IMG/VR virus record: IMGVR_UViG_3300044701_003572
Location: 1-64,000 of that record
Origin: a virus
Length of the DNA stretch: 64,000 bases
Strand: one strand, 5' to 3'
Under the pieces are notes generated by a model. That model had not been told where the DNA came from. It searched no databases and saw only the letters and a list, made by a program, of their open reading frames with translations. This document shows, piece by piece, positions 47,919 through 64,000 of this stretch (the stretch's first letter is position 1; each line of letters opens with the position of its first letter). A program made the translations under genes and the position numbers.

Positions 47919-48038
47919 TTATTGTTTCTTAGCAATCATTGCCTGAATTTTTTCCTGTACGATCTTAGCCCAAAATGGCTGTGGAAAATTCCATCCAATA
48001 AATGCCCCGACTGCTACCCATAATAGTGTATCTAACAT
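47919..48038 (-). CDS. 39-aa membrane microprotein
   Basis: Manual translation MLDTLLWVAVGAFIGWNFPQPFWAKIVQEKIQAMIAKKQ; AAGGAG SD; fills the gap between sod and iscU. Confidence 0.7.
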   Translation of the reverse strand: MLDTLLWVAVGAFIGWNFPQPFWAKIVQEKIQAMIAKKQ

Positions 48039-48039
48039 T

Positions 48040-48597
48040 TTACGCTCCTTGTAAACGGATATCAACAACTTCCCAGTTGATGATTCTCCATATATTATTT
48101 AAGTACTTTGCTTTGTCTTGTTGATAATCCAGTGCCCAAGCGTGTTCCCAAGCATCTATCAACAGAGCAATTTTCATATTCTTTTTATATTCGTGATTAT
48201 GTATTGTGTGCAGTTTGCCGGAGGTATCCATATAGATCCAATTGGATCCTTGAGCGGCCATGAACTCTTTTTCAAAAGCCTCTTTAAACTTTTCAAAATT
48301 TCCATAATTATCTTCGATTAGGGTCTTACTGATCCCCTCTGGTTTATTAGCAGCTCTAGGTGGGGTAAGATTAGCAAAGAAAATATTATGTAACATAGCA
48401 CCACCGTAGTTAAAATCCGGGTCGCCTTCACCTTTGTTGTAACGTTCAGAGTATTTGGCAGCTAATCCGTCGTAATGATATTTAACGGTATCTTCGCTCA
48501 TCACAGGCTCTAACTCGTTTTTATCAAACTTGAGTTTATCTTGACGGATTTCGCTCTTGTCTTTGTTTTCTGTTATACTTTTAATAAAATGTAGCAT
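48040..48597 (-). CDS. Fe/Mn superoxide dismutase
   Basis: LEPVMSEDTVKYHY, FNYGGAMLH and DAWEHA metal ligands. Start at ATG 48597, 5 nt after TAAATA. Confidence 0.88.
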   Translation of the reverse strand: MLHFIKSITENKDKSEIRQDKLKFDKNELEPVMSEDTVKYHYDGLAAKYSERYNKGEGDPDFNYGGAMLHNIFFANLTPPRAANKPEGISKTLIEDNYGNFEKFKEAFEKEFMAAQGSNWIYMDTSGKLHTIHNHEYKKNMKIALLIDAWEHAWALDYQQDKAKYLNNIWRIINWEVVDIRLQGA

Positions 48598-59286: not shown

Positions 59287-59773
59287 CTTTCTCTTCTTTC
59301 TCGTCTGGGAAACACAATGATTCCATTGTTTTATAATGTTCGTAGGCTTTTTTGAGAGCTTCAAACTTTTCAAGTTTTTCTGGATCGGGAACCAGTATAG
59401 CTAATCTTTGCTCCATCTTTGAGATAAAATCTTTAAGACTAACATTACCAATTTTAAGATCGCCACCTTCTTTTATATTAACACCATCAGTGTCTATGTT
59501 TACGGTGGGTGCATAATTTTGAGTCCAAGTGTAACCACTAGTCCCGTTCGTTGTGTATACTCCCCCGCCACCTCCACTAATTGTATAAGTTGAGGATGGA
59601 AAAGTTATAGTCGATGAAGTCATATTTAAATCATCCAAGGTGATAGTTTGCACACCATCCAGTTCCAGAGCTGCACCAACAGCACCAATGTCAAGATCCA
59701 AAGTTATTGTATCAGTGACTGTGATGCTGTCAGTTTCGCTACCGCTAAGGATGTAATTATCCTTATCGTCCAT
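59276..59773 (-). CDS. hypothetical protein
   Basis: Thr/Gly-rich middle; C-terminal FEALKKAYEHYK. Confidence 0.75.
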   Translation of the reverse strand: MDDKDNYILSGSETDSITVTDTITLDLDIGAVGAALELDGVQTITLDDLNMTSSTITFPSSTYTISGGGGGVYTTNGTSGYTWTQNYAPTVNIDTDGVNIKEGGDLKIGNVSLKDFISKMEQRLAILVPDPEKLEKFEALKKAYEHYKTMESLCFPDEKEEKDEC

Positions 59774-59774
59774 A

Positions 59775-59975
59775 TTAGGCCTTTGTTACTTTTGCTTCTT
59801 TGCGAGCGTTCTTTTCTGCAGTGATTTCGTTACGGCGAGCCTTTACACTCTTAGCCACTTCTTGTAGGGCTTTACGAGCGCGAGTACCTGCTGCCGAGTT
59901 ACCTGCTGTAAACTTTGCATCTTCTGCTAAAAATGTTTCGAAGTCTGCTTTTAGTTGTTCTACTGTATTTGACAT
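59775..59975 (-). CDS. histone H1-like (Hc1-family) small basic DNA-binding protein
   Basis: KFTAGNSAAGTRARKALQE..K..R.EI motif. Confidence 0.75.
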   Translation of the reverse strand: MSNTVEQLKADFETFLAEDAKFTAGNSAAGTRARKALQEVAKSVKARRNEITAEKNARKEAKVTKA

Positions 59976-60018
59976 AATTGTTTCCTTTAAGTTATGTTAT
60001 TCTACTTATTCTAGAATT

Positions 60019-60131
60019 TGGTGTGGTCGGTAGGTTTCGAACCTACAAAGGCTGCGAGTTATACTCAGCGCCCCGTCCCCATTCTCGACTATGAGTCGAG
60101 CGGGAGGTCTGCCTATTCCACTCACGACCAC
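60019..60131 (-). tRNA. atypical 113-nt tRNA-like RNA with anticodon CAT, extended anticodon arm and long variable arm
   Basis: Acceptor stem GTGGTCG/CGACCAC + A + CCA; T-arm GTAGG-TTCGAAA-CCTAC; D-loop with GG; anticodon stem-loop CTCGA-CTCATAG-TCGAG. Confidence 0.8.
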
Positions 60132-60137
60132 AAGTAT

Positions 60138-60166
60138 ATTATATAACCTTAATCTTAAAAATACAA
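60138..60166 (-). promoter_or_regulatory. sigma70-type promoter TTGTAT-N17-TATAAT for the tRNA-like RNA
   Basis: -10 at 60138-60143, -35 at 60161-60166; predicted +1 at about 60131. Confidence 0.6.
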
Positions 60167-60194
60167 TATATGATAGGTTAAATAATAGCAGTTT

Positions 60195-61178
60195 ATGACA
60201 CACGACTTTCAAAAAATACCTTTTCAAAATATAATTAAATTTGGACAGAGAACTATGTTAGAAAGACCTTTGTTCTCTGTAAGTTGGATATTAGGACGAT
60301 TTTGTAATTATAGTTGTTCATATTGCTGGCCGTATGCAAGATCGGATAGAATTGATCACCAATCACTAGACATCTATAAAAATACAGTAGACGAAATTAA
60401 AAGACAAGCAAGACAGAATGGATTTACAGAGTTTCATTGGAGCTTCAGTGGTGGCGAACCAACGGCCTATAAACAACTATTAGATCTAGCAAGACATTTA
60501 GAAAATGATTTAGAAAGTCCGTATCAGAGCATACATATGACTACCAATTTAAGTCCGGGAAGCAAATGGTGGAAAAATTGGTCGAATACTACTGCTAATT
60601 TGCAGAGAAGAAGTATTACAGCAAGCTATCATTCTGAGTTCGCTAAAGAACAGGAATTTGGTGATAAATGCCTTCAGCTTATGTACGACAACGTATATGT
60701 TACAATCAATCAAGTAATGGTGCCGGATCAATTTTTTCAATTATACGAACGCTGTGAAAGACTGCATAAAAGAGGAATCAATGTAACTCTGAAGCCTCAG
60801 AGTGATCCTACGGCCAGCGGCGTTGTAGATGGATATACCAAGGAAATGATTAACCTGATGCAGACAGGTTTTCCTCAGCAGGCCAACGCCGAAGAATTAT
60901 ATCAAATTGTACTTTATGATACTAATGATAAAGAGTATTTGTTTGATCAGGCAGAAAGATTTAACGCTTATGATTTTAATAAGTTTCAAGGATGGCATTG
61001 TAATTCTGGATACCAAAGTGTTATAATTCGCAGCGATGAAGTAAAAAGATCCTATAGTTGTCATGATCAACTGTTAGGAACTTTAACAGAAGGATTTAAT
61101 TTGTTTAATAAACCTCGACGCTGCATTACACCTAGTTGTGTAAGTTCAGCTGATAGTAAAGTACCAAAATGCAAATAG
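60195..61178 (+). CDS. radical SAM protein with a C-terminal Cys-rich (SPASM/twitch-like) region
   Basis: CNYSCSYC, SGGEP and C-terminal Cys residues. Confidence 0.9.
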   Translation: MTHDFQKIPFQNIIKFGQRTMLERPLFSVSWILGRFCNYSCSYCWPYARSDRIDHQSLDIYKNTVDEIKRQARQNGFTEFHWSFSGGEPTAYKQLLDLARHLENDLESPYQSIHMTTNLSPGSKWWKNWSNTTANLQRRSITASYHSEFAKEQEFGDKCLQLMYDNVYVTINQVMVPDQFFQLYERCERLHKRGINVTLKPQSDPTASGVVDGYTKEMINLMQTGFPQQANAEELYQIVLYDTNDKEYLFDQAERFNAYDFNKFQGWHCNSGYQSVIIRSDEVKRSYSCHDQLLGTLTEGFNLFNKPRRCITPSCVSSADSKVPKCK

Positions 61179-61777
61179 ATACAGAACATTTACATTACTG
61201 GATGCAGGCTATCCGGCAAAGCCCGAATCCTATGCGAACCATGGATGCATTCTGGAGAGGACAACTTAAAAGCAAAGAATGGTTAATCGAAAATTTACGT
61301 AAGCACGTAAACAAATTTGTAACAGTAGATATTCACGGAGGATGGGTTGGAGTATTAGCTAGTATGTTGTTCCAGAGCGAAATTCCTATCATTAATATTC
61401 GTAGTATTGATATTGATCCAACGTGCGAACCTATCGCTGTTAATATGAATAAGATTGAAGAAATGGTAGGGAAGTTTCGAGCAGTCACTGCCGATATGTG
61501 TGTTATTAGCAGTAATGCAGATGTTATCATTAATACCAGCTGTGAACATATTACACAGTACGATTATGATACGTGGCTAAATGGTATTCCATCTAGCTCA
61601 TTGCTTGTTTTACAAAGTAATAATTATCAAATTCCGGAGCACGTTCGAACAGCAAAAACATTAGATGAATTTAAAGAACAATCTAATATTAACATATTGT
61701 GGTCCGGAGAACTAGAATTGCCCTTATACAACCGATATATGATCATTGGAAGAAAGAATGTTACCTTATCCACATAA
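61169..61777 (+). CDS. class I SAM-dependent methyltransferase-like protein
   Basis: VDIHGGWVG motif I, SIDID and IINTSCEH. Confidence 0.7.
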   Translation: MQIDTEHLHYWMQAIRQSPNPMRTMDAFWRGQLKSKEWLIENLRKHVNKFVTVDIHGGWVGVLASMLFQSEIPIINIRSIDIDPTCEPIAVNMNKIEEMVGKFRAVTADMCVISSNADVIINTSCEHITQYDYDTWLNGIPSSSLLVLQSNNYQIPEHVRTAKTLDEFKEQSNINILWSGELELPLYNRYMIIGRKNVTLST

Positions 61778-62858
61778 TATAAAATCAGTTCATATCGAAT
61801 TAACTGACAAATGTCAAGCAGCCTGTCCTATGTGTTCGAGAAACGAGTTCGGCGGCAAAGAACGCAGTCATATTAAAAATACTGAAATTACTTTAGAACA
61901 GTTTGTTCAATGGTTCCCTAGAGAATTCTTAATGAAACTTGATAGTTTTTATGCTTGTGGAAATAACGGAGACCCTTTACTGGCTAAAGATTGTTTAGAA
62001 ATATTCGAATATCTGGCTAATAACACTACTGATGATTGTAGACTTGCCATTCACACTAACGGAAGTTTGAGAAATAAAGAGTGGTGGACGAATCTTGCTA
62101 GAGTTCTGGGTAATAAAGGTTTGGTAGTTTTTGCTATCGATGGATTTAAAGGTCAGCATGAAATGTATAGGCGAAACACTAGTTGGGATAAAATTATTGA
62201 GAATGCTAAGACATTTATAGCTGCTGGCGGCAAAGCAAGATCAGATACTTTGTTATTCAAACACAACGAAGATGAGGCAGAAAATCTAAAAGAATATCTA
62301 CTTAGCATCGGGTTTGAAGAAGTTATTCTAAAACCAACACAAAGGTTTCACGGATTACCTCAGTTCCCAGTAAAAGATCAATATGGTAACGTGGAATACT
62401 ATATCGAAGGACCTACGAAACCGCAGTATAAAGAATACATTATGCAACCAAACATGGTTAAGTTAGTAGAAAAAGAAACTTATAATGCTCTAATTAAAAA
62501 TTCTGAAATTGATCCGAAGTGTCAAACTGGTCGAGACTTATTTGTTAATACTTTTGGTAATGTGTGGCCCTGCTGTTTTGTACAGGCATTAAATGTCACT
62601 GACGGACTTGACTGGCAAGGTGCCGAATATGTTATTAGGGAAAGATTAAGACTATCCGCTGTAGATGTAGCAGATGATATTGGTATTCCAAATTTGCACG
62701 GAACTAATATCGTTGATATTTTGAATTCTTGCGGTTGGGGCGAAAGTCTTCCTAAACATTATACCACTGATAAAAAATTAGTTTGTGTTAAAAGTTGTTC
62801 TACAAACTTACGAAAGTTGGTTGAAGATAATAACAAACCTCAAATACAATACTGGTAA
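61758..62858 (+). CDS. radical SAM/SPASM protein
   Basis: CQAACPMC, GNNGDP, HTNG, GNVWPCC and CVKSC. Start at ATG 61758. Confidence 0.9.
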   Translation: MLPYPHNIKSVHIELTDKCQAACPMCSRNEFGGKERSHIKNTEITLEQFVQWFPREFLMKLDSFYACGNNGDPLLAKDCLEIFEYLANNTTDDCRLAIHTNGSLRNKEWWTNLARVLGNKGLVVFAIDGFKGQHEMYRRNTSWDKIIENAKTFIAAGGKARSDTLLFKHNEDEAENLKEYLLSIGFEEVILKPTQRFHGLPQFPVKDQYGNVEYYIEGPTKPQYKEYIMQPNMVKLVEKETYNALIKNSEIDPKCQTGRDLFVNTFGNVWPCCFVQALNVTDGLDWQGAEYVIRERLRLSAVDVADDIGIPNLHGTNIVDILNSCGWGESLPKHYTTDKKLVCVKSCSTNLRKLVEDNNKPQIQYW

Positions 62859-63520
62859 TCTAAAATAACACCTGCTCGGGTAATTGATTCAAAAGCACCT
62901 GTAAATGTATCTGGAGTCAGCGTGTTTAAATAAACTTCCTTTTCGCTGATTGCTTTGAAACCTGTAATTGTATTATTTTTTACACCTGCATTGATCAATG
63001 TCATAATCGGTGTGTACGCCAATTGCTTCCAATCATAGTCGCCTTCGATAATTTTAATTTTAAGAAAAGGATCTTGTTCGTTGTATCTCGGTAAAAGAAC
63101 ACGCACATTAAGATGTATTCTAGTTCGAGGTCCCCAATTTGCCGCAACGTGTATTTTGCCTGTGTTCATATACCATAGTTGTCCGTCGGCAGGCAGATGG
63201 TATAATTTGTTGTCAGTTATATCAACTAAAAAACTGTAAGGATTGGTAATAATAGCAAGATGTATTCGATCATCTGGATCAGCGTGTGCAGTATATGACT
63301 CCGCAGATTCTAGTTTAAGAAGTCTAGCCTGCCCAATATTTCCTAAAGACTTTAATACCTCACCTAACGGAGTTGATTCAAACTCCGGCAAAATTATCCA
63401 AGGATCATGAAAGAAAGATCCAGAAGGTTTATTCAAGTCTAGACGTTTTTCAAATACCAAATCATCAACTTGTTGTATAATGGGTTCTATAGAAAATTTT
63501 TGGTCGAGTTTAGTAAGCAT
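62840..63520 (-). CDS. 2OG-Fe(II) oxygenase, aspartyl/asparaginyl beta-hydroxylase-like
   Basis: HAD...H triad (YTAHADPD, KIHVAAN) and a downstream RIHL. Confidence 0.7.
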   Translation of the reverse strand: MLTKLDQKFSIEPIIQQVDDLVFEKRLDLNKPSGSFFHDPWIILPEFESTPLGEVLKSLGNIGQARLLKLESAESYTAHADPDDRIHLAIITNPYSFLVDITDNKLYHLPADGQLWYMNTGKIHVAANWGPRTRIHLNVRVLLPRYNEQDPFLKIKIIEGDYDWKQLAYTPIMTLINAGVKNNTITGFKAISEKEVYLNTLTPDTFTGAFESITRAGVILDYQYCI

Positions 63521-63530
63521 AATTATACTT

Positions 63531-64000
63531 ATGAAAGTAGATATACCGTTTGATAATAATTGGAAAAGTGTTGCTATTGCGGTAAGTGGCGGCGCTGATA
63601 GCGCATTACTGACATTTCTAGTTTGTCAAACAGTAACAGAAAGAAATATTAATCCTTTTACTGTACACGTTATTAATAACATTAGATGCTGGAAGACTAA
63701 GCCCTGGCAACAAAGCGATTTTAAAAAAGTTTATAATTGGTTAGTTCAACGATTTCCAAAAATTAATTTTCAAATACACACAAATTTCGTACCTCCTGAA
63801 CTAGAATGGGCCAATAAAGGTCCTAGCATTATCGATGAATACGGTAAGTTAGTCAGTGGAGACACACTAGAATTAAGATCCTTTGCAGAATTTGTATGCA
63901 TCAATCAGGATGTTGATGCATATTTCAATGGCGTTACACGAAATCCAAAAGGCGTTGATTTTCAGGGAATGCATACTAGAGATATAGAACCTACCGAAGA
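63531..64000 (+). CDS. PP-loop ATPase (QueC/TilS-superfamily-like), truncated by the window edge
   Basis: Manual translation MKVDIPFDNNWKSVAIAVSGGADSALL...; the frame stays open to the window end. Confidence 0.75.
   Translation, partial: MKVDIPFDNNWKSVAIAVSGGADSALLTFLVCQTVTERNINPFTVHVINNIRCWKTKPWQQSDFKKVYNWLVQRFPKINFQIHTNFVPPELEWANKGPSIIDEYGKLVSGDTLELRSFAEFVCINQDVDAYFNGVTRNPKGVDFQGMHTRDIEPTE

What the first reader, a model, noticed from the sequence alone, without database searches (positions are those of the whole stretch)
60019..60166. Oversized tRNA-like RNA (113 nt, CAT anticodon) with a lengthened anticodon arm, apparently transcribed without a leader
Seen: a perfect 7-bp acceptor stem, encoded CCA and a canonical T-arm. 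The normal 5-bp/7-nt anticodon stem-loop (CTCGA-CTCATAG-TCGAG) sits on an extra helix (CCCG/TGGG with an AA bulge). It is followed by a long variable hairpin (GGC-GC-T-GAGT-ATA-ACTC-GC-A-GCC). Established: Met and Ile2 tRNAs are about 76 nt with short variable loops, and initiator tRNA has an unpaired 1:72 and three G-C pairs in the anticodon stem, which this RNA lacks. Inference: the longer arm should not fit the ribosome normally. It may be a tRNA mimic or decoy (for anticodon nucleases, synthetases or tRNA-sensing defences), an aminoacyl donor for non-ribosomal chemistry, or a processed RNA. The upstream promoter places +1 at G1, suggesting RNase P-independent maturation.
Basis: partly seen in the sequence, partly recalled or inferred. 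Interest (0 to 1): 0.84.

Follow-up and report, generated by a model that had tools for sequence, protein, structure and literature searches.

The report
Anticodon-less leucine-tRNA mimic of giant phages
A large uncultured freshwater phage carries a strongly promoted 113-base RNA gene built like a leucine tRNA, but a closed rod-like hairpin replaces the codon-reading loop, so it probably behaves as a tRNA in the cell without translating, and its job is unknown.

Summary
The RNA is real: window 60131..60019 (minus strand), 113 nt, with a 7-bp acceptor stem, T arm, A73 and an encoded CCA.

It belongs to a conserved family in IMG/VR. 46 loci share its T arm and acceptor, and 74 of 80 loci found through the neighbouring Hc1 gene carry it. 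Covariation supports every helix.

The "CAT anticodon" is not a family feature. Of 60 distinct members, 24 have a CYCATAG-like loop and only 7 have the window's exact loop. The other 36 carry closed hairpins capped by GNRA, U5 or CTAG loops. A 5-bp anticodon-type stem is kept, and a hairpin replaces the loop.

The body is leucine-type. U8, A14, A15, G18, G19, A20a, U48, T54, T55, C56, A58 and A73 are invariant in 60 of 60. Phage tRNA-Leu genes are the nearest canonical tRNAs in 3 of 5 comparison sets.

A sigma-70 promoter puts +1 on nucleotide 1 in 49 of 52 distinct upstream sequences. The Hc1 histone-like gene follows in 41 of 41 RNA-anchored loci.

Best reading: a leaderless, non-decoding tRNA-Leu mimic, possibly charged by host LeuRS. 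Its function is unknown. The closest known RNAs are T4 RNAC and T5 RNA1.

This scan has already reported the same family on other DNA.

The parts
60161..60166 (-). -35 box (TTGTAT) of the sigma-70-type promoter
   Evidence: Direct reading. A TTG-type -35 box lies 16-17 nt upstream of the -10 box in the 52 distinct upstream sequences. The simple scan did not list this promoter; its rule requires 9 of 12 matches and here 9 are reached only with a 17-nt spacer.
60138..60143 (-). -10 box (TATAAT), 6 nt upstream of RNA nucleotide 1
   Evidence: The -10 box is TATAAT or TATACT and lies exactly 6 nt before nucleotide 1 in 49 of 52 distinct upstream sequences, so the predicted +1 is G 60131.
60019..60131 (-). 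The tRNA-shaped RNA gene, 113 nt, ending in the encoded CCA (60021-60019)
   Evidence: Model R1 scores it 125.8 bits and RF00005 scores it 31.5 bits.
60125..60131 (-). Acceptor stem, 5' strand (nt 1-7). It pairs with 60023-60029. A73 is at 60022.
   Evidence: 100% of cells pair. G1-C72 changes to A-U in 2 sequences and to G.U in 9. U5-A68 changes to C-G in 2. A73 is kept in 60 of 60 and CCA in 59 of 60.
60106..60124 (-). U8 and the D region (nt 8-26), with a Leu-type D loop (AA..GG.A.A) and a weak D stem
   Evidence: U8, A14, A15, G18, G19, A20a and A21 are invariant in 60 of 60. The G11-C pair is invariant. The next D-stem pair is a standard pair in only 10 of 60.
60077..60105 (-). The 'anticodon' arm. 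The 5-bp base helix is nt 27-31 with nt 51-55. The inserted hairpin is nt 32-48 (CTCGA / CTCATAG / TCGAG). The AA bulge is nt 49-50.
   Evidence: In the base helix, pair 28-54 changes C-G to G-U in 6 sequences and to G-C in 4. The hairpin stem pairs change on both sides in 8 to 30 of 60 sequences. The loop is not conserved across the family.
60047..60076 (-). Long variable arm (nt 56-85). It has an outer 4-bp stem, a 3x3 internal loop, an inner stem, a loop containing TA, and then U48.
Evidence: The outer and inner stems pair in 100% of cells, with both-side changes at 4 pairs. U48 is kept in 60 of 60.
60030..60046 (-). T arm (5-bp stem, loop TTCGAAA)
   Evidence: 100% of cells pair. One pair changes U-A to C-G in 2 sequences. 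T54, T55, C56 and A58 are kept in 60 of 60.
60003..60009 (-). Conserved ATAAGTA motif in the 43-nt spacer between the CCA end and the Hc1 start codon
   Evidence: The motif is present in most family members. It occurs only 6 times in the window against 16.7 expected, so it is not a general promoter word. Its role is unknown.
59775..59975 (-). Hc1 histone-H1-like gene (66 aa), always the next gene downstream on the same strand
   Evidence: PF07432, E 2.2e-14. Hc1 follows the RNA in 41 of 41 RNA-anchored loci that have at least 250 nt of downstream sequence.

Best explanation
This is a real, conserved gene for a non-decoding mimic of a class II leucine tRNA.

Host RNA polymerase with sigma-70 starts transcription at the first nucleotide of the acceptor stem (G 60131). 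No 5' leader has to be removed by RNase P, and the RNA should keep a 5' triphosphate (inferred).

The RNA folds into the tRNA L-shape using the standard hinge contacts: U8-A14, A15-U48, G18G19 with the T loop, and T54-A58. Its 3' end is trimmed to A73-CCA (inferred).

Where a tRNA has a 7-nt anticodon loop on a 5-bp stem, this family has an extra closed hairpin plus a 1-2-nt bulge. The arm is therefore about twice the normal length and has no conserved anticodon. It cannot read codons in the ribosomal A site (inferred from geometry).

The invariant positions are the set that bacterial LeuRS uses. LeuRS ignores the anticodon. The most likely molecular event is therefore that host LeuRS binds the RNA and probably leucylates it, after which it acts off the ribosome.

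What it does there is not shown. My ranking is:
(a) It engages or titrates a tRNA-Leu-handling or CCA-end-handling host factor early in infection.
(b) It carries leucine for a non-ribosomal reaction.

Sub-confidences:
- real conserved RNA gene: 0.97
- non-decoding: 0.85
- tRNA-Leu-derived body: 0.75
- leaderless start: 0.7
- actually leucylated: 0.4
For: Family and structure:
- 46 IMG/VR loci share the T arm plus 3' acceptor 24-mer.
- 74 of 80 Hc1-anchored loci match model R1 at E <= 1e-17.
- There are 60 distinct sequences. 93.4% of cells pair and 14 pairs show changes on both sides. The covariation score is 0.289, against 0.115 in shuffles and at most 0.056 in slid controls.

Non-decoding:
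- Arm types among the 60 are 24 A, 24 C and 12 B/other. 36 of 60 have no 7-nt loop at all.
- The window's exact loop occurs in only 7 of 60, and 17 of 24 type-A loops lack U33.
- The alternative Rfam-style D stem, which would give normal tRNA dimensions, pairs in only 59.1% of cells with no covariation.
- Related phage records hold 10-35 canonical tRNAs. Two arrays have 34 genes each and cover all 20 amino acids, including Met, Ile and three Leu.

Leucine type:
- U8, A14, A15, G18, G19, A20a, A21, U48, T54, T55, C56, A58 and A73 are invariant in 60 of 60.
- Passages of the identity review PMC9976931 say that E. coli leucine identity rests on A73, A15-U48, G18G19, A20a and the D/T-loop contacts. 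They say it does not rest on the anticodon or the variable arm. They also say the anticodon arm is dispensable for charging.
- With model R1, the best canonical tRNAs are the five tRNA-Leu genes of arrays L140 and L142 (36.3-30.5 bits), ahead of Ser at 29.9 and Tyr at 29.8.
- T4 tRNA-Leu scores 40.0 bits, against Ser at 26.1.

Leaderless:
- The -10 box lies 6 nt before nucleotide 1 in 49 of 52 distinct upstream sequences. Nucleotide 1 is a purine in 60 of 60.
Against: - No expression data exist for the RNA. The two RNA-seq runs that hold part of the stretch cover only the Hc1 gene.
- Aminoacylation is untested.
- The leucine affinity is not exclusive. In array L141, tRNA-Ser(GCU) ties with tRNA-Leu(CAA) at 29.9 bits. 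In T5, tRNA-His scores 32.7 bits, ahead of tRNA-Leu at 29.6.
- The only bacterial genome with the T-arm/acceptor pattern holds an ordinary tRNA-His.
- The D stem is weak: its second pair is a standard pair in 10 of 60.
- Within type A, the loop CYCATAG is kept while its stem covaries. That loop therefore has some sequence-specific role which this account does not explain.
- The strict linkage to Hc1 (41 of 41) is not explained by a LeuRS-centred role.
- The long, conserved variable arm is not needed by E. coli-type LeuRS.
- The A4 alignment was fitted to the model, which inflates the paired percentages.
Confidence: 0.6

Rival explanations
1. It is a cis-acting 5' element of the Hc1-ThyX operon. 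The tRNA-shaped fold sits at the very 5' end of the early transcript. It is cut off by host tRNA-processing nucleases, which sets the 5' end, stability or dosage of the downstream mRNA. The released RNA would have no job of its own.
For: - The RNA always lies directly between the promoter and Hc1 on the same strand. In 41 of 41 RNA-anchored loci the Hc1 gene follows it, and the downstream order Hc1, cluster-0 gene, ThyX and so on is conserved.
- The spacer is a constant 40-45 nt in most loci.
- No intrinsic terminator was found between the RNA and Hc1 in the window.
- The upstream neighbour varies: it is a radical SAM gene in 29 of 40 loci.
Against: - A mere processing signal would not need A73-CCA (59 of 60) together with the full leucine hinge set invariant in 60 of 60.
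- Five of 80 Hc1 loci have a full-length upstream region with no such RNA (L066, L068, L069, L073, L090). A sixth, L058, is cut off inside the RNA's 3' end. So Hc1 does not require the RNA.
- Seven loci carry a G+C-rich hairpin between the CCA end and Hc1, which suggests separate transcription units.
Confidence: 0.15
2. It is a sponge or decoy for a host anti-phage effector that attacks the tRNA body or the CCA/aminoacyl end, for example enzymes that modify or cleave the acceptor end. Because it is made early and abundantly without any processing, it would spare the real tRNA pool.
For: - The promoter is strong and early-type, with a leaderless design.
- The acceptor end and L-shape are invariant while the anticodon arm is free to vary.
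- These phages invest heavily in tRNAs, with about 34 genes in an array.
- That phage tRNAs counter tRNA-targeting defences is recalled knowledge. It was not checked in a paper here.
Against: - No defence gene or partner protein was identified.
- A stoichiometric sponge against catalytic enzymes is inefficient.
- A decoy for anticodon nucleases is unlikely without a conserved anticodon loop (36 of 60 lack one).
- The Hc1 linkage remains unexplained.
Confidence: 0.12
3. It is an RNA partner of the co-transcribed Hc1 histone-like protein. The RNA would bind or buffer the basic, potentially toxic nucleoid-condensing protein. The layout would resemble type III toxin-antitoxin loci: promoter, structured RNA, small hairpin, protein gene.
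For: - RNA-Hc1 adjacency is strict (41 of 41).
- The gene order is promoter, RNA, short spacer with a conserved motif, then Hc1.
- Hc1 belongs to PF07432.
- That chlamydial Hc1 is toxic and is controlled by a small RNA is recalled knowledge, not checked here.
Against: - Nothing in the RNA explains why an Hc1 ligand should keep a leucine-tRNA hinge, A73 and CCA.
- 5 of 80 Hc1 loci lack the RNA.
- No binding test was possible with these tools.
Confidence: 0.08
4. It is a genuine decoding tRNA with anticodon CAU (Met, or Ile after lysidine formation) and an enormous variable region, as in the Rfam alignment. Alternatively it is an intron-bearing tRNA-Pro(CGG), as ARAGORN -i proposes.
For: - RF00005 aligns CTCGA/CTCATAG/TCGAG as the anticodon arm at 31.5 bits, just above the cut-off of 29.
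- ARAGORN in intron mode calls tRNA-Pro(cgg) with an 18-nt intron.
- The loop CYCATAG is kept in 21 of 24 type-A members, and 2 have TAT, which would also read AUA.
- A weak PP-loop (PF01171) hit lies 3.3 kb away, at 20.3-21.2 bits, below the cut-off of 27.
Against: - The D stem that the Rfam alignment needs pairs in 59.1% of cells and shows no covariation.
- The competing base helix covaries: pair 28-54 has 10 both-side changes.
- The ARAGORN intron model pairs the 5' strand with the second G run. That pairing breaks in type B sequences (read).
- 36 of 60 homologues have no anticodon loop.
- 17 of 24 type-A loops have C33.
- The homologue in record G001 scores 21.8 bits, below the cut-off.
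- The phages already have tRNA-Met and tRNA-Ile.
Confidence: 0.04
5. It is a decaying pseudo-tRNA or a chance fold.
For: ARAGORN in default mode and the first Rfam search did not call it.
Against: - The family has dozens of distinct sequences with compensatory changes in every helix and invariant hinge nucleotides.
- The promoter geometry is conserved.
Confidence: 0.01

Closest known systems
Class II tRNA-Leu of bacteria and phages (within Rfam RF00005)
   Same: - It has a 7-bp acceptor stem, a 5-bp T stem, A73-CCA and a long variable arm.
- It has a Leu-type D loop with A14, A15, G18G19 and A20a, and it has U48.
- Phage tRNA-Leu genes are the best canonical matches to the family model in arrays L140 and L142 and in T4.
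   Different: - The 7-nt anticodon loop is replaced by a closed hairpin plus a bulge.
- The D stem is reduced to 1-3 pairs.
- The variable arm is about 30 nt with a conserved 3x3 internal loop.
- It is a stand-alone gene, 28 kb from the tRNA array in record G001, with its own promoter and no 5' leader.
- Its RF00005 score is only 31.5 bits, and 21.8 bits for a homologue.
Phage T5 RNA1 (AY692264 30504-30647, annotated misc_RNA 'RNA1')
   Same: It has the same design when folded: a tRNA-like acceptor stem, a D loop with the same Leu-type AA..GG.A.A signature, an over-long closed arm in place of the anticodon arm, a variable hairpin and a T arm. No function is given in the record.
   Different: - It is 144 nt long.
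- It lies inside the T5 tRNA cluster, next to RNAI and RNAIII.
- Model R1 finds no significant similarity (10.4 bits, E 0.057).
- It is not next to an Hc1 gene.
Phage T4 RNAC (species 1 RNA, AF158101 70908-71046)
   Same: - It is an oversized (139 nt) tRNA-shaped stable RNA with a T arm, a long inner arm and a long variable hairpin.
- Its biological role is stated as unknown in PMC3014915 and PMC9697503 (passages read).
   Different: - It lies in the T4 tRNA cluster.
- It is classified as a late RNA there (PMC9697503 passage).
- Its acceptor stem has mismatches, and the annotated RNA has no encoded CCA.
- R1 scores it only 14.7 bits.
tRNA-like domain of tmRNA
   Same: It is a tRNA-shaped acceptor/T-arm module with a poor D stem, joined to a long helix instead of an anticodon arm. 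It is aminoacylated by a synthetase that ignores the anticodon (recalled knowledge).
   Different: - There is no G3.U70: G3-C70 is kept in 60 of 60.
- There is no tag reading frame.
- It is 113 nt long.
- ARAGORN's tmRNA search finds nothing, and there is no Rfam tmRNA hit.
Leaderless tRNAs transcribed from nucleotide 1 (Nanoarchaeum equitans tRNAs, eukaryotic tRNA-Sec; recalled, not read here)
   Same: The promoter is placed so that transcription begins at position 1 of the acceptor stem, which makes RNase P unnecessary.
   Different: Those are decoding tRNAs of cells. Here the arrangement is inferred from the spacing of a bacterial-type promoter and has not been mapped.

Membership tests
Canonical decoding tRNA (RF00005) | Acceptor stem, T arm with a TTCRA loop, and G18G19 | tested here: met
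   These features are invariant or covarying in the 60 distinct sequences.
Canonical decoding tRNA (RF00005) | Scores above the Rfam gathering threshold and is called by a tRNA finder | tested here: inconclusive
   - RF00005 scores 31.5 bits against a cut-off of 29.
- There was no hit in the 401-nt search or the whole-window search.
- The homologue in G001 scores 21.8 bits.
- ARAGORN in default mode finds 0 genes.
Canonical decoding tRNA (RF00005) | A 5-bp anticodon stem closed by a 7-nt loop with U33, a conserved anticodon and a purine at position 37 | tested here: not met
   The 5-bp stem carries an extra hairpin. 36 of 60 have no 7-nt loop, 17 of 24 type-A loops have C33, and the loop triplet varies (CAT 21, TAT 2, CAC 1).
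tRNA-Leu / substrate of bacterial LeuRS | Discriminator A73 | tested here: met
   60 of 60. The identity rule comes from PMC9976931 passages.
tRNA-Leu / substrate of bacterial LeuRS | Hinge set: A15-U48, G18G19, A20a, U8-A14, and the T54-A58 and D/T-loop contacts | tested here: met
   All these nucleotides are invariant in 60 of 60. The pairings themselves are inferred from position.
tRNA-Leu / substrate of bacterial LeuRS | Closest canonical relatives are tRNA-Leu genes | tested here: inconclusive
   - Leu ranks first in L140 and L142 and in T4.
- Leu ties with Ser in L141.
- tRNA-His ranks first and Leu second in T5.
tRNA-Leu / substrate of bacterial LeuRS | Is actually leucylated | not testable with these tools
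   This needs in vitro charging or acid-gel Northern blots.
tRNA-Met / tRNA-Ile2 (CAU) | A conserved CAU anticodon in a standard loop, with Met- or Ile-type identity elements | tested here: not met
   CAT is present in 21 of 60. The body is Leu-type.
Intron-bearing tRNA (ARAGORN -i: Pro-CGG with an 18-nt intron) | An anticodon stem formed with the second G run, and a consistent mature anticodon across homologues | tested here: not met
   Covariation supports pairing with the first G run (pair 28-54). The implied mature loops differ in every subtype (read).
tmRNA | G3.U70, a tag reading frame and pseudoknots | tested here: not met
   G3-C70 is kept in 60 of 60. ARAGORN -m finds none. There is no Rfam hit.
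Phage oversized tRNA-like stable RNAs (T4 RNAC, T5 RNA1) | A tRNA-type acceptor and T arm with over-long closed inner arms, and no usable anticodon | tested here: met
   Folds, compared.
Phage oversized tRNA-like stable RNAs (T4 RNAC, T5 RNA1) | Detectable sequence/structure homology | tested here: not met
   R1 scores 14.7 bits on T4 RNAC and 10.4 bits on T5 RNA1.
Phage oversized tRNA-like stable RNAs (T4 RNAC, T5 RNA1) | Located inside the phage tRNA gene cluster | tested here: not met
   In record G001 the tRNA array spans 61.4-75.3 kb and the RNA lies at 103.5 kb. In the window there is no other tRNA within 86 kb.
Phage oversized tRNA-like stable RNAs (T4 RNAC, T5 RNA1) | Accumulates as a stable small RNA | not testable with these tools
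   The RNA-seq contigs did not cover the RNA.

The most novel reading that the evidence does not exclude
The RNA is a dedicated off-ribosome aminoacyl carrier. Host LeuRS would charge it. Charging might proceed without proofreading, because the review passages say the tRNA-Leu anticodon arm is needed for editing but not for charging. The lineage-specific rod-like arm and the conserved variable arm would then dock it to a phage protein that uses or modifies the tethered amino acid. One candidate partner is an enzyme of the adjacent island, which holds 12 radical SAM enzymes and several oxygenases. That would be a tRNA-scaffolded chemistry private to giant phages.
Probability: 0.07. Interest if true: 0.9.

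Novelty: new variant of a known kind. Interest (0 to 1): 0.6.

Why it matters
Phages T4 and T5 have carried unexplained oversized tRNA-shaped RNAs in their annotations for decades. This family gives the same puzzle much better comparative leverage. There are dozens of distinct sequences from abundant freshwater giant phages, and they divide cleanly into a kept part and a free part:
- Kept: the LeuRS recognition set, the CCA end, the variable arm, and a leaderless promoter.
- Free: the former anticodon arm, which comes in three interchangeable modules.

That pattern turns "function unknown" into concrete tests: charging by LeuRS, a 5' triphosphate, and partners of the variable arm and of Hc1.

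If the RNA is charged but cannot decode, it would be a viral device that taps or diverts the host's aminoacylation system outside translation.

It also shows that standard tRNA finders and Rfam filters miss such genes.

Tried and rejected
- ARAGORN in default mode found no tRNA or tmRNA in the window or in the 86-kb record. Its intron mode forced a tRNA-Pro(CGG) with an 18-nt intron. I rejected that on covariation (reading).
- Rfam gave no tRNA hit in a 401-nt E-value search or a whole-window gathering search. The hit at 31.5 bits appeared only with 131 nt and in the genome search. The D stem in Rfam's alignment is not supported.
- blastn (distant mode) of 59700-60300 against 50,697 phage records found no match.
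- Expression: the look-up of sequencing runs gave two RNA runs with small shares. When laid, their single contigs cover only 59771-59963, which is Hc1. That is no evidence either way for the RNA.
- R1 found nothing in the five records whose Hc1 lacks the RNA. These records are 2-12% complete fragments, so the result is uninformative.
- PF03588 (L/F-transferase) and PF00133 (class I synthetases including LeuRS) gave 0 of 5 partial records each. This is uninformative.
- Pfam on 30 neighbouring and island proteins found radical SAM (12), Asp/Arg-hydroxylase-like proteins, an aminotransferase and a weak PP-loop hit. It found no known aminoacyl-tRNA-dependent transferase.
- The scan of genome contigs with the degenerate T-arm/acceptor pattern gave one hit, an ordinary tRNA-His in a Tokpelaia MAG. 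It gives no host clue.
- ATAAGTA as a general promoter word is rejected: 6 matches against 16.7 expected.
- A post-CCA hairpin is weak (-1 to -5 kcal/mol) and its register is inconsistent.
- PHROGs and a tblastn of the ClpA-like protein only place the phage among distant jumbo-phage relatives, at about 42% identity.
- Literature: four searches found no description of this family. I saw passages only of PMC7609411, PMC5389517, PMC3014915, PMC9697503, PMC10690425 and PMC9976931.
Full report
**What is there**

On the minus strand, 60131..60019 encodes a 113-nt RNA. Its parts are:
- a perfect 7-bp acceptor stem
- a D region with the GG dinucleotide
- a long arm
- a long variable hairpin
- a 5-bp T stem with a TTCGAAA loop
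- A73 and an encoded CCA

The MFE fold gives this cloverleaf at -45 kcal/mol (z = -3.0).

ARAGORN in default mode calls nothing in the window or in the whole 86,378-base virus record. IMG/VR and CheckV rate that record 24% complete, so the phage is probably very large.

Rfam found nothing when 401 nt or the whole window were searched. It does report RF00005 at 31.5 bits, against a cut-off of 29, when only 131 nt are given and in the genome search pipeline. The RNA is therefore a borderline tRNA by standard tools.

**It is a family**

A search of IMG/VR for the 24-base T arm plus 3' acceptor returned 46 loci. These gave 23 distinct RNAs.

A second search, anchored on the neighbouring Hc1 protein, found at least 477 loci. 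The best 80 were kept. A covariance model, R1, matched 74 of those 80 at E 1e-17 to 1e-31. The six misses are one locus that is cut off (L058) and five with a different upstream region (L066, L068, L069, L073, L090).

From 60 chosen sources I obtained 60 distinct sequences of 107-114 nt. On that alignment:
- 93.4% of cells form standard pairs.
- 14 of 31 pairs change on both sides.
- The covariation score is 0.289, against 0.115 in shuffles and at most 0.056 when partners are slid.

The alignment was fitted to the model, so the percentages lean towards it. The compensatory changes are nevertheless plain in the rows. In the acceptor stem, G1-C72 becomes A-U and U5-A68 becomes C-G. In the T stem, U-A becomes C-G. 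In the variable arm, G-C becomes A-U. In the base helix, C-G becomes G-C or G-U.

**The arm is not an anticodon arm**

The lower helix is 5 bp (T27.G55, N28-N54, C-G, C-G, G.T). It corresponds to a normal anticodon stem.

Where the 7-nt loop should be, the family has an inserted hairpin followed by a 1-2-nt bulge. Three module types occur among the 60:
- **Type A (24), including the window.** A 5-bp stem that covaries freely and a loop of CCCATAG (14), CTCATAG (7), CCTATAG (2) or CCCACAG (1).
- **Type C (24).** A bulged C, a helix with a kept C.C mismatch, and a GNRA-type cap inside TTGNGAAA.
- **Type B/other (12).** A longer hairpin capped by GAAA, GTAA, TTTTT or CTAG. One member (L017) is degenerate.

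The window's "CAT anticodon" is thus a subtype feature. 17 of the 24 type-A loops lack U33.

The Rfam alignment would give normal tRNA dimensions. It needs a D stem that pairs in only 59.1% of cells and shows no covariation. The ARAGORN intron model is contradicted in the same way.

Related phage records carry 10-35 ordinary tRNAs in arrays. Two arrays have 34 genes each and cover all 20 amino acids, including Met, Ile(GAU) and three Leu isoacceptors. In record G001 the array lies at 61-75 kb and the odd RNA at 103.5 kb. No decoding gap needs filling.

**The body is leucine-type**

The following positions are invariant in 60 of 60: U8, A14, A15, G18, G19, A20a, A21, U48, T54, T55, C56, A58 and A73. 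CCA is kept in 59 of 60.

Passages of the identity review PMC9976931 state the following for E. coli tRNA-Leu:
- A73 is crucial, but the anticodon and the long variable arm are not.
- A15-U48, G18G19 and A20a are essential, and the D/T-loop contacts are needed.
- Truncated forms remain active.
- The anticodon arm is dispensable for charging but needed for editing.

What this family keeps is therefore that recognition set, and what it varies is what LeuRS ignores.

Scoring canonical tRNAs with R1 gives these results:
- The five tRNA-Leu genes of arrays L140 and L142 rank first (36.3-30.5 bits), ahead of Ser at 29.9 and Tyr at 29.8.
- T4 tRNA-Leu ranks first in T4 (40.0 bits, against Ser at 26.1).
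- Against this, in array L141 tRNA-Ser(GCU) ties with tRNA-Leu(CAA) at 29.9 bits.
- Also against this, in T5 tRNA-His (32.7 bits) beats tRNA-Leu (29.6 bits).
- The one bacterial genome with the T-arm/acceptor pattern has a plain tRNA-His.

The phage tRNA-Ser genes end in G73. With A73 invariant here, Leu remains the best fit.

**Promoter and neighbours**

In 52 distinct upstream sequences, a TATAAT or TATACT box lies exactly 6 nt before nucleotide 1 in 49, 7 nt in 2 and 5 nt in 1. A TTG-type -35 box lies 16-17 nt further up. Nucleotide 1 is G in 58 and A in 2 of the 60. A constant spacing over otherwise variable sequence is good comparative evidence that transcription starts on nucleotide 1, so no RNase P step is needed. 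This has not been mapped.

Downstream, the Hc1 histone-H1-like gene (PF07432) follows in 41 of 41 RNA-anchored loci that have enough sequence. The spacer is usually 40-45 nt and holds a kept ATAAGTA word. That word is rare in the window (6 against 16.7 expected). After Hc1 come a 165-aa protein, ThyX and further conserved genes.

Upstream, the divergent neighbour is a radical SAM gene in 29 of 40 loci and something else in 11. The link to the tailoring island is therefore loose, while the link to Hc1 is strict. The island holds 12 radical SAM proteins and no recognisable aminoacyl-tRNA-dependent transferase.

**Mechanism**

Shown:
- It is a conserved, structured, tRNA-Leu-like RNA gene without a conserved anticodon.
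- It lies behind a precisely placed promoter and ahead of Hc1.

Inferred:
- It starts leaderless with a 5' triphosphate.
- It folds into an L-shape.
- Its 3' end is matured to CCA.
- Host LeuRS recognises it and possibly leucylates it.
- It cannot decode, because the arm is about twice the normal length.

Not known: what it does off the ribosome.

The rivals I keep open are:
- a cis-acting 5' element of the Hc1 operon
- a sponge for factors that act on the tRNA body or CCA end
- an RNA partner of Hc1

Expression could not be checked. The only two RNA-seq runs holding part of the stretch cover Hc1 alone.

**Comparison with what is known**

T4 RNAC (139 nt) and T5 RNA1 (144 nt) fold into the same kind of object: a tRNA-type acceptor and T arm, an over-long closed arm, and a variable hairpin. 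T5 RNA1 also has a Leu-type D loop.

The roles of T4 RNAC and RNAD are called unknown in PMC3014915 and PMC9697503 (passages).

R1 finds no significant similarity to either (14.7 and 10.4 bits). Both lie inside tRNA clusters, unlike this RNA. I therefore file it as a new variant of that known but unexplained kind.

No cultured phage in the 50,697-record collection matches the locus. The nearest cultured relatives of a ClpA-like protein are jumbo phages at about 42% identity. Four literature searches found no description of the family.

**Earlier notes of this scan**

After I had reached the tRNA-Leu reading, look-ups showed that follow-up agents had already reported the same family in other genomes as an anticodon-less tRNA-Leu mimic. 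One of them named T5 RNA1 as closest known, and I then checked that myself.

This report adds:
- the three arm modules and their counts
- the 5-bp stem reading
- the test against the Rfam fold
- the promoter-spacing tally
- the 60-of-60 identity-set tally
- the strict Hc1 linkage, contrasted with the loose radical-SAM linkage

Noticed in passing
L140:4327-4418 and L142:5306-5397 (tRNA arrays of related phage records G001 and G002): ARAGORN calls a 92-nt 'tRNA-Ile(tat)' with a 6-bp anticodon stem, a tiny D arm, a long variable arm and a G.T first acceptor pair. This is an irregular, possibly allo-tRNA-like, AUA decoder sitting among normal tRNAs.
   Followed up: no
L141:4029-4127 (record G003 48028-48123): A 96-99-nt element scores 59.7 bits with RF00005 and 27.7 bits with R1. 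ARAGORN does not call it. That array otherwise lacks a tRNA-Tyr call.
   Followed up: no
window 60003-60009 and 63526-63532 (minus strand): The word ATAAGTA is depleted in the window (6 against 16.7 expected). It nevertheless sits just upstream of two gene starts, Hc1 and the 226-aa hydroxylase-like gene. It is kept in most family members between the CCA end and Hc1. It may be a phage-specific regulatory or promoter word.
   Followed up: partly
L064, L072, L075, L088, L089, L100, L106 (and L003), just 3' of the RNA: A G+C-rich hairpin of about 20 nt is inserted between the CCA end and the ATAAGTA word. This lengthens the spacer to 63 nt. It may be a terminator that separates the RNA from Hc1 in that lineage.
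   Followed up: no
window 60047-60076 (variable arm) and homologues: The 3x3 internal loop of the variable arm often has the same three letters on both strands (for example GCA/GCA, AAC/AAC, GTA/GTA, ACC/ACC). The hairpin loop always contains TA. This looks like a conserved non-Watson-Crick motif, and possibly a protein-binding site.
   Followed up: partly
window 60195-64000 and G000 64001-86378 (L145, L146): 12 of 23 island proteins scanned carry a radical SAM domain. Four of these have SPASM domains and one has a B12-binding domain. The island also has Asp/Arg-hydroxylase-like proteins, a class III aminotransferase and a weak PP-loop protein. No precursor peptide or tRNA-dependent transferase was seen.
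   Followed up: partly
window 59771-59963: Contigs from two metatranscriptome runs cover the Hc1 gene at 96-99% identity. One run is from lake water (2017) and one is labelled marine (2022). These are low-depth contigs, and the libraries may contain DNA.
   Followed up: no
window 59978-60227 and homologous loci: Long spurious ORFs run antisense across the RNA and Hc1 (for example 60006-60227 in the window, and 'cluster 4'). They can mask the 63-66-aa Hc1 gene in automatic gene calls.
   Followed up: yes
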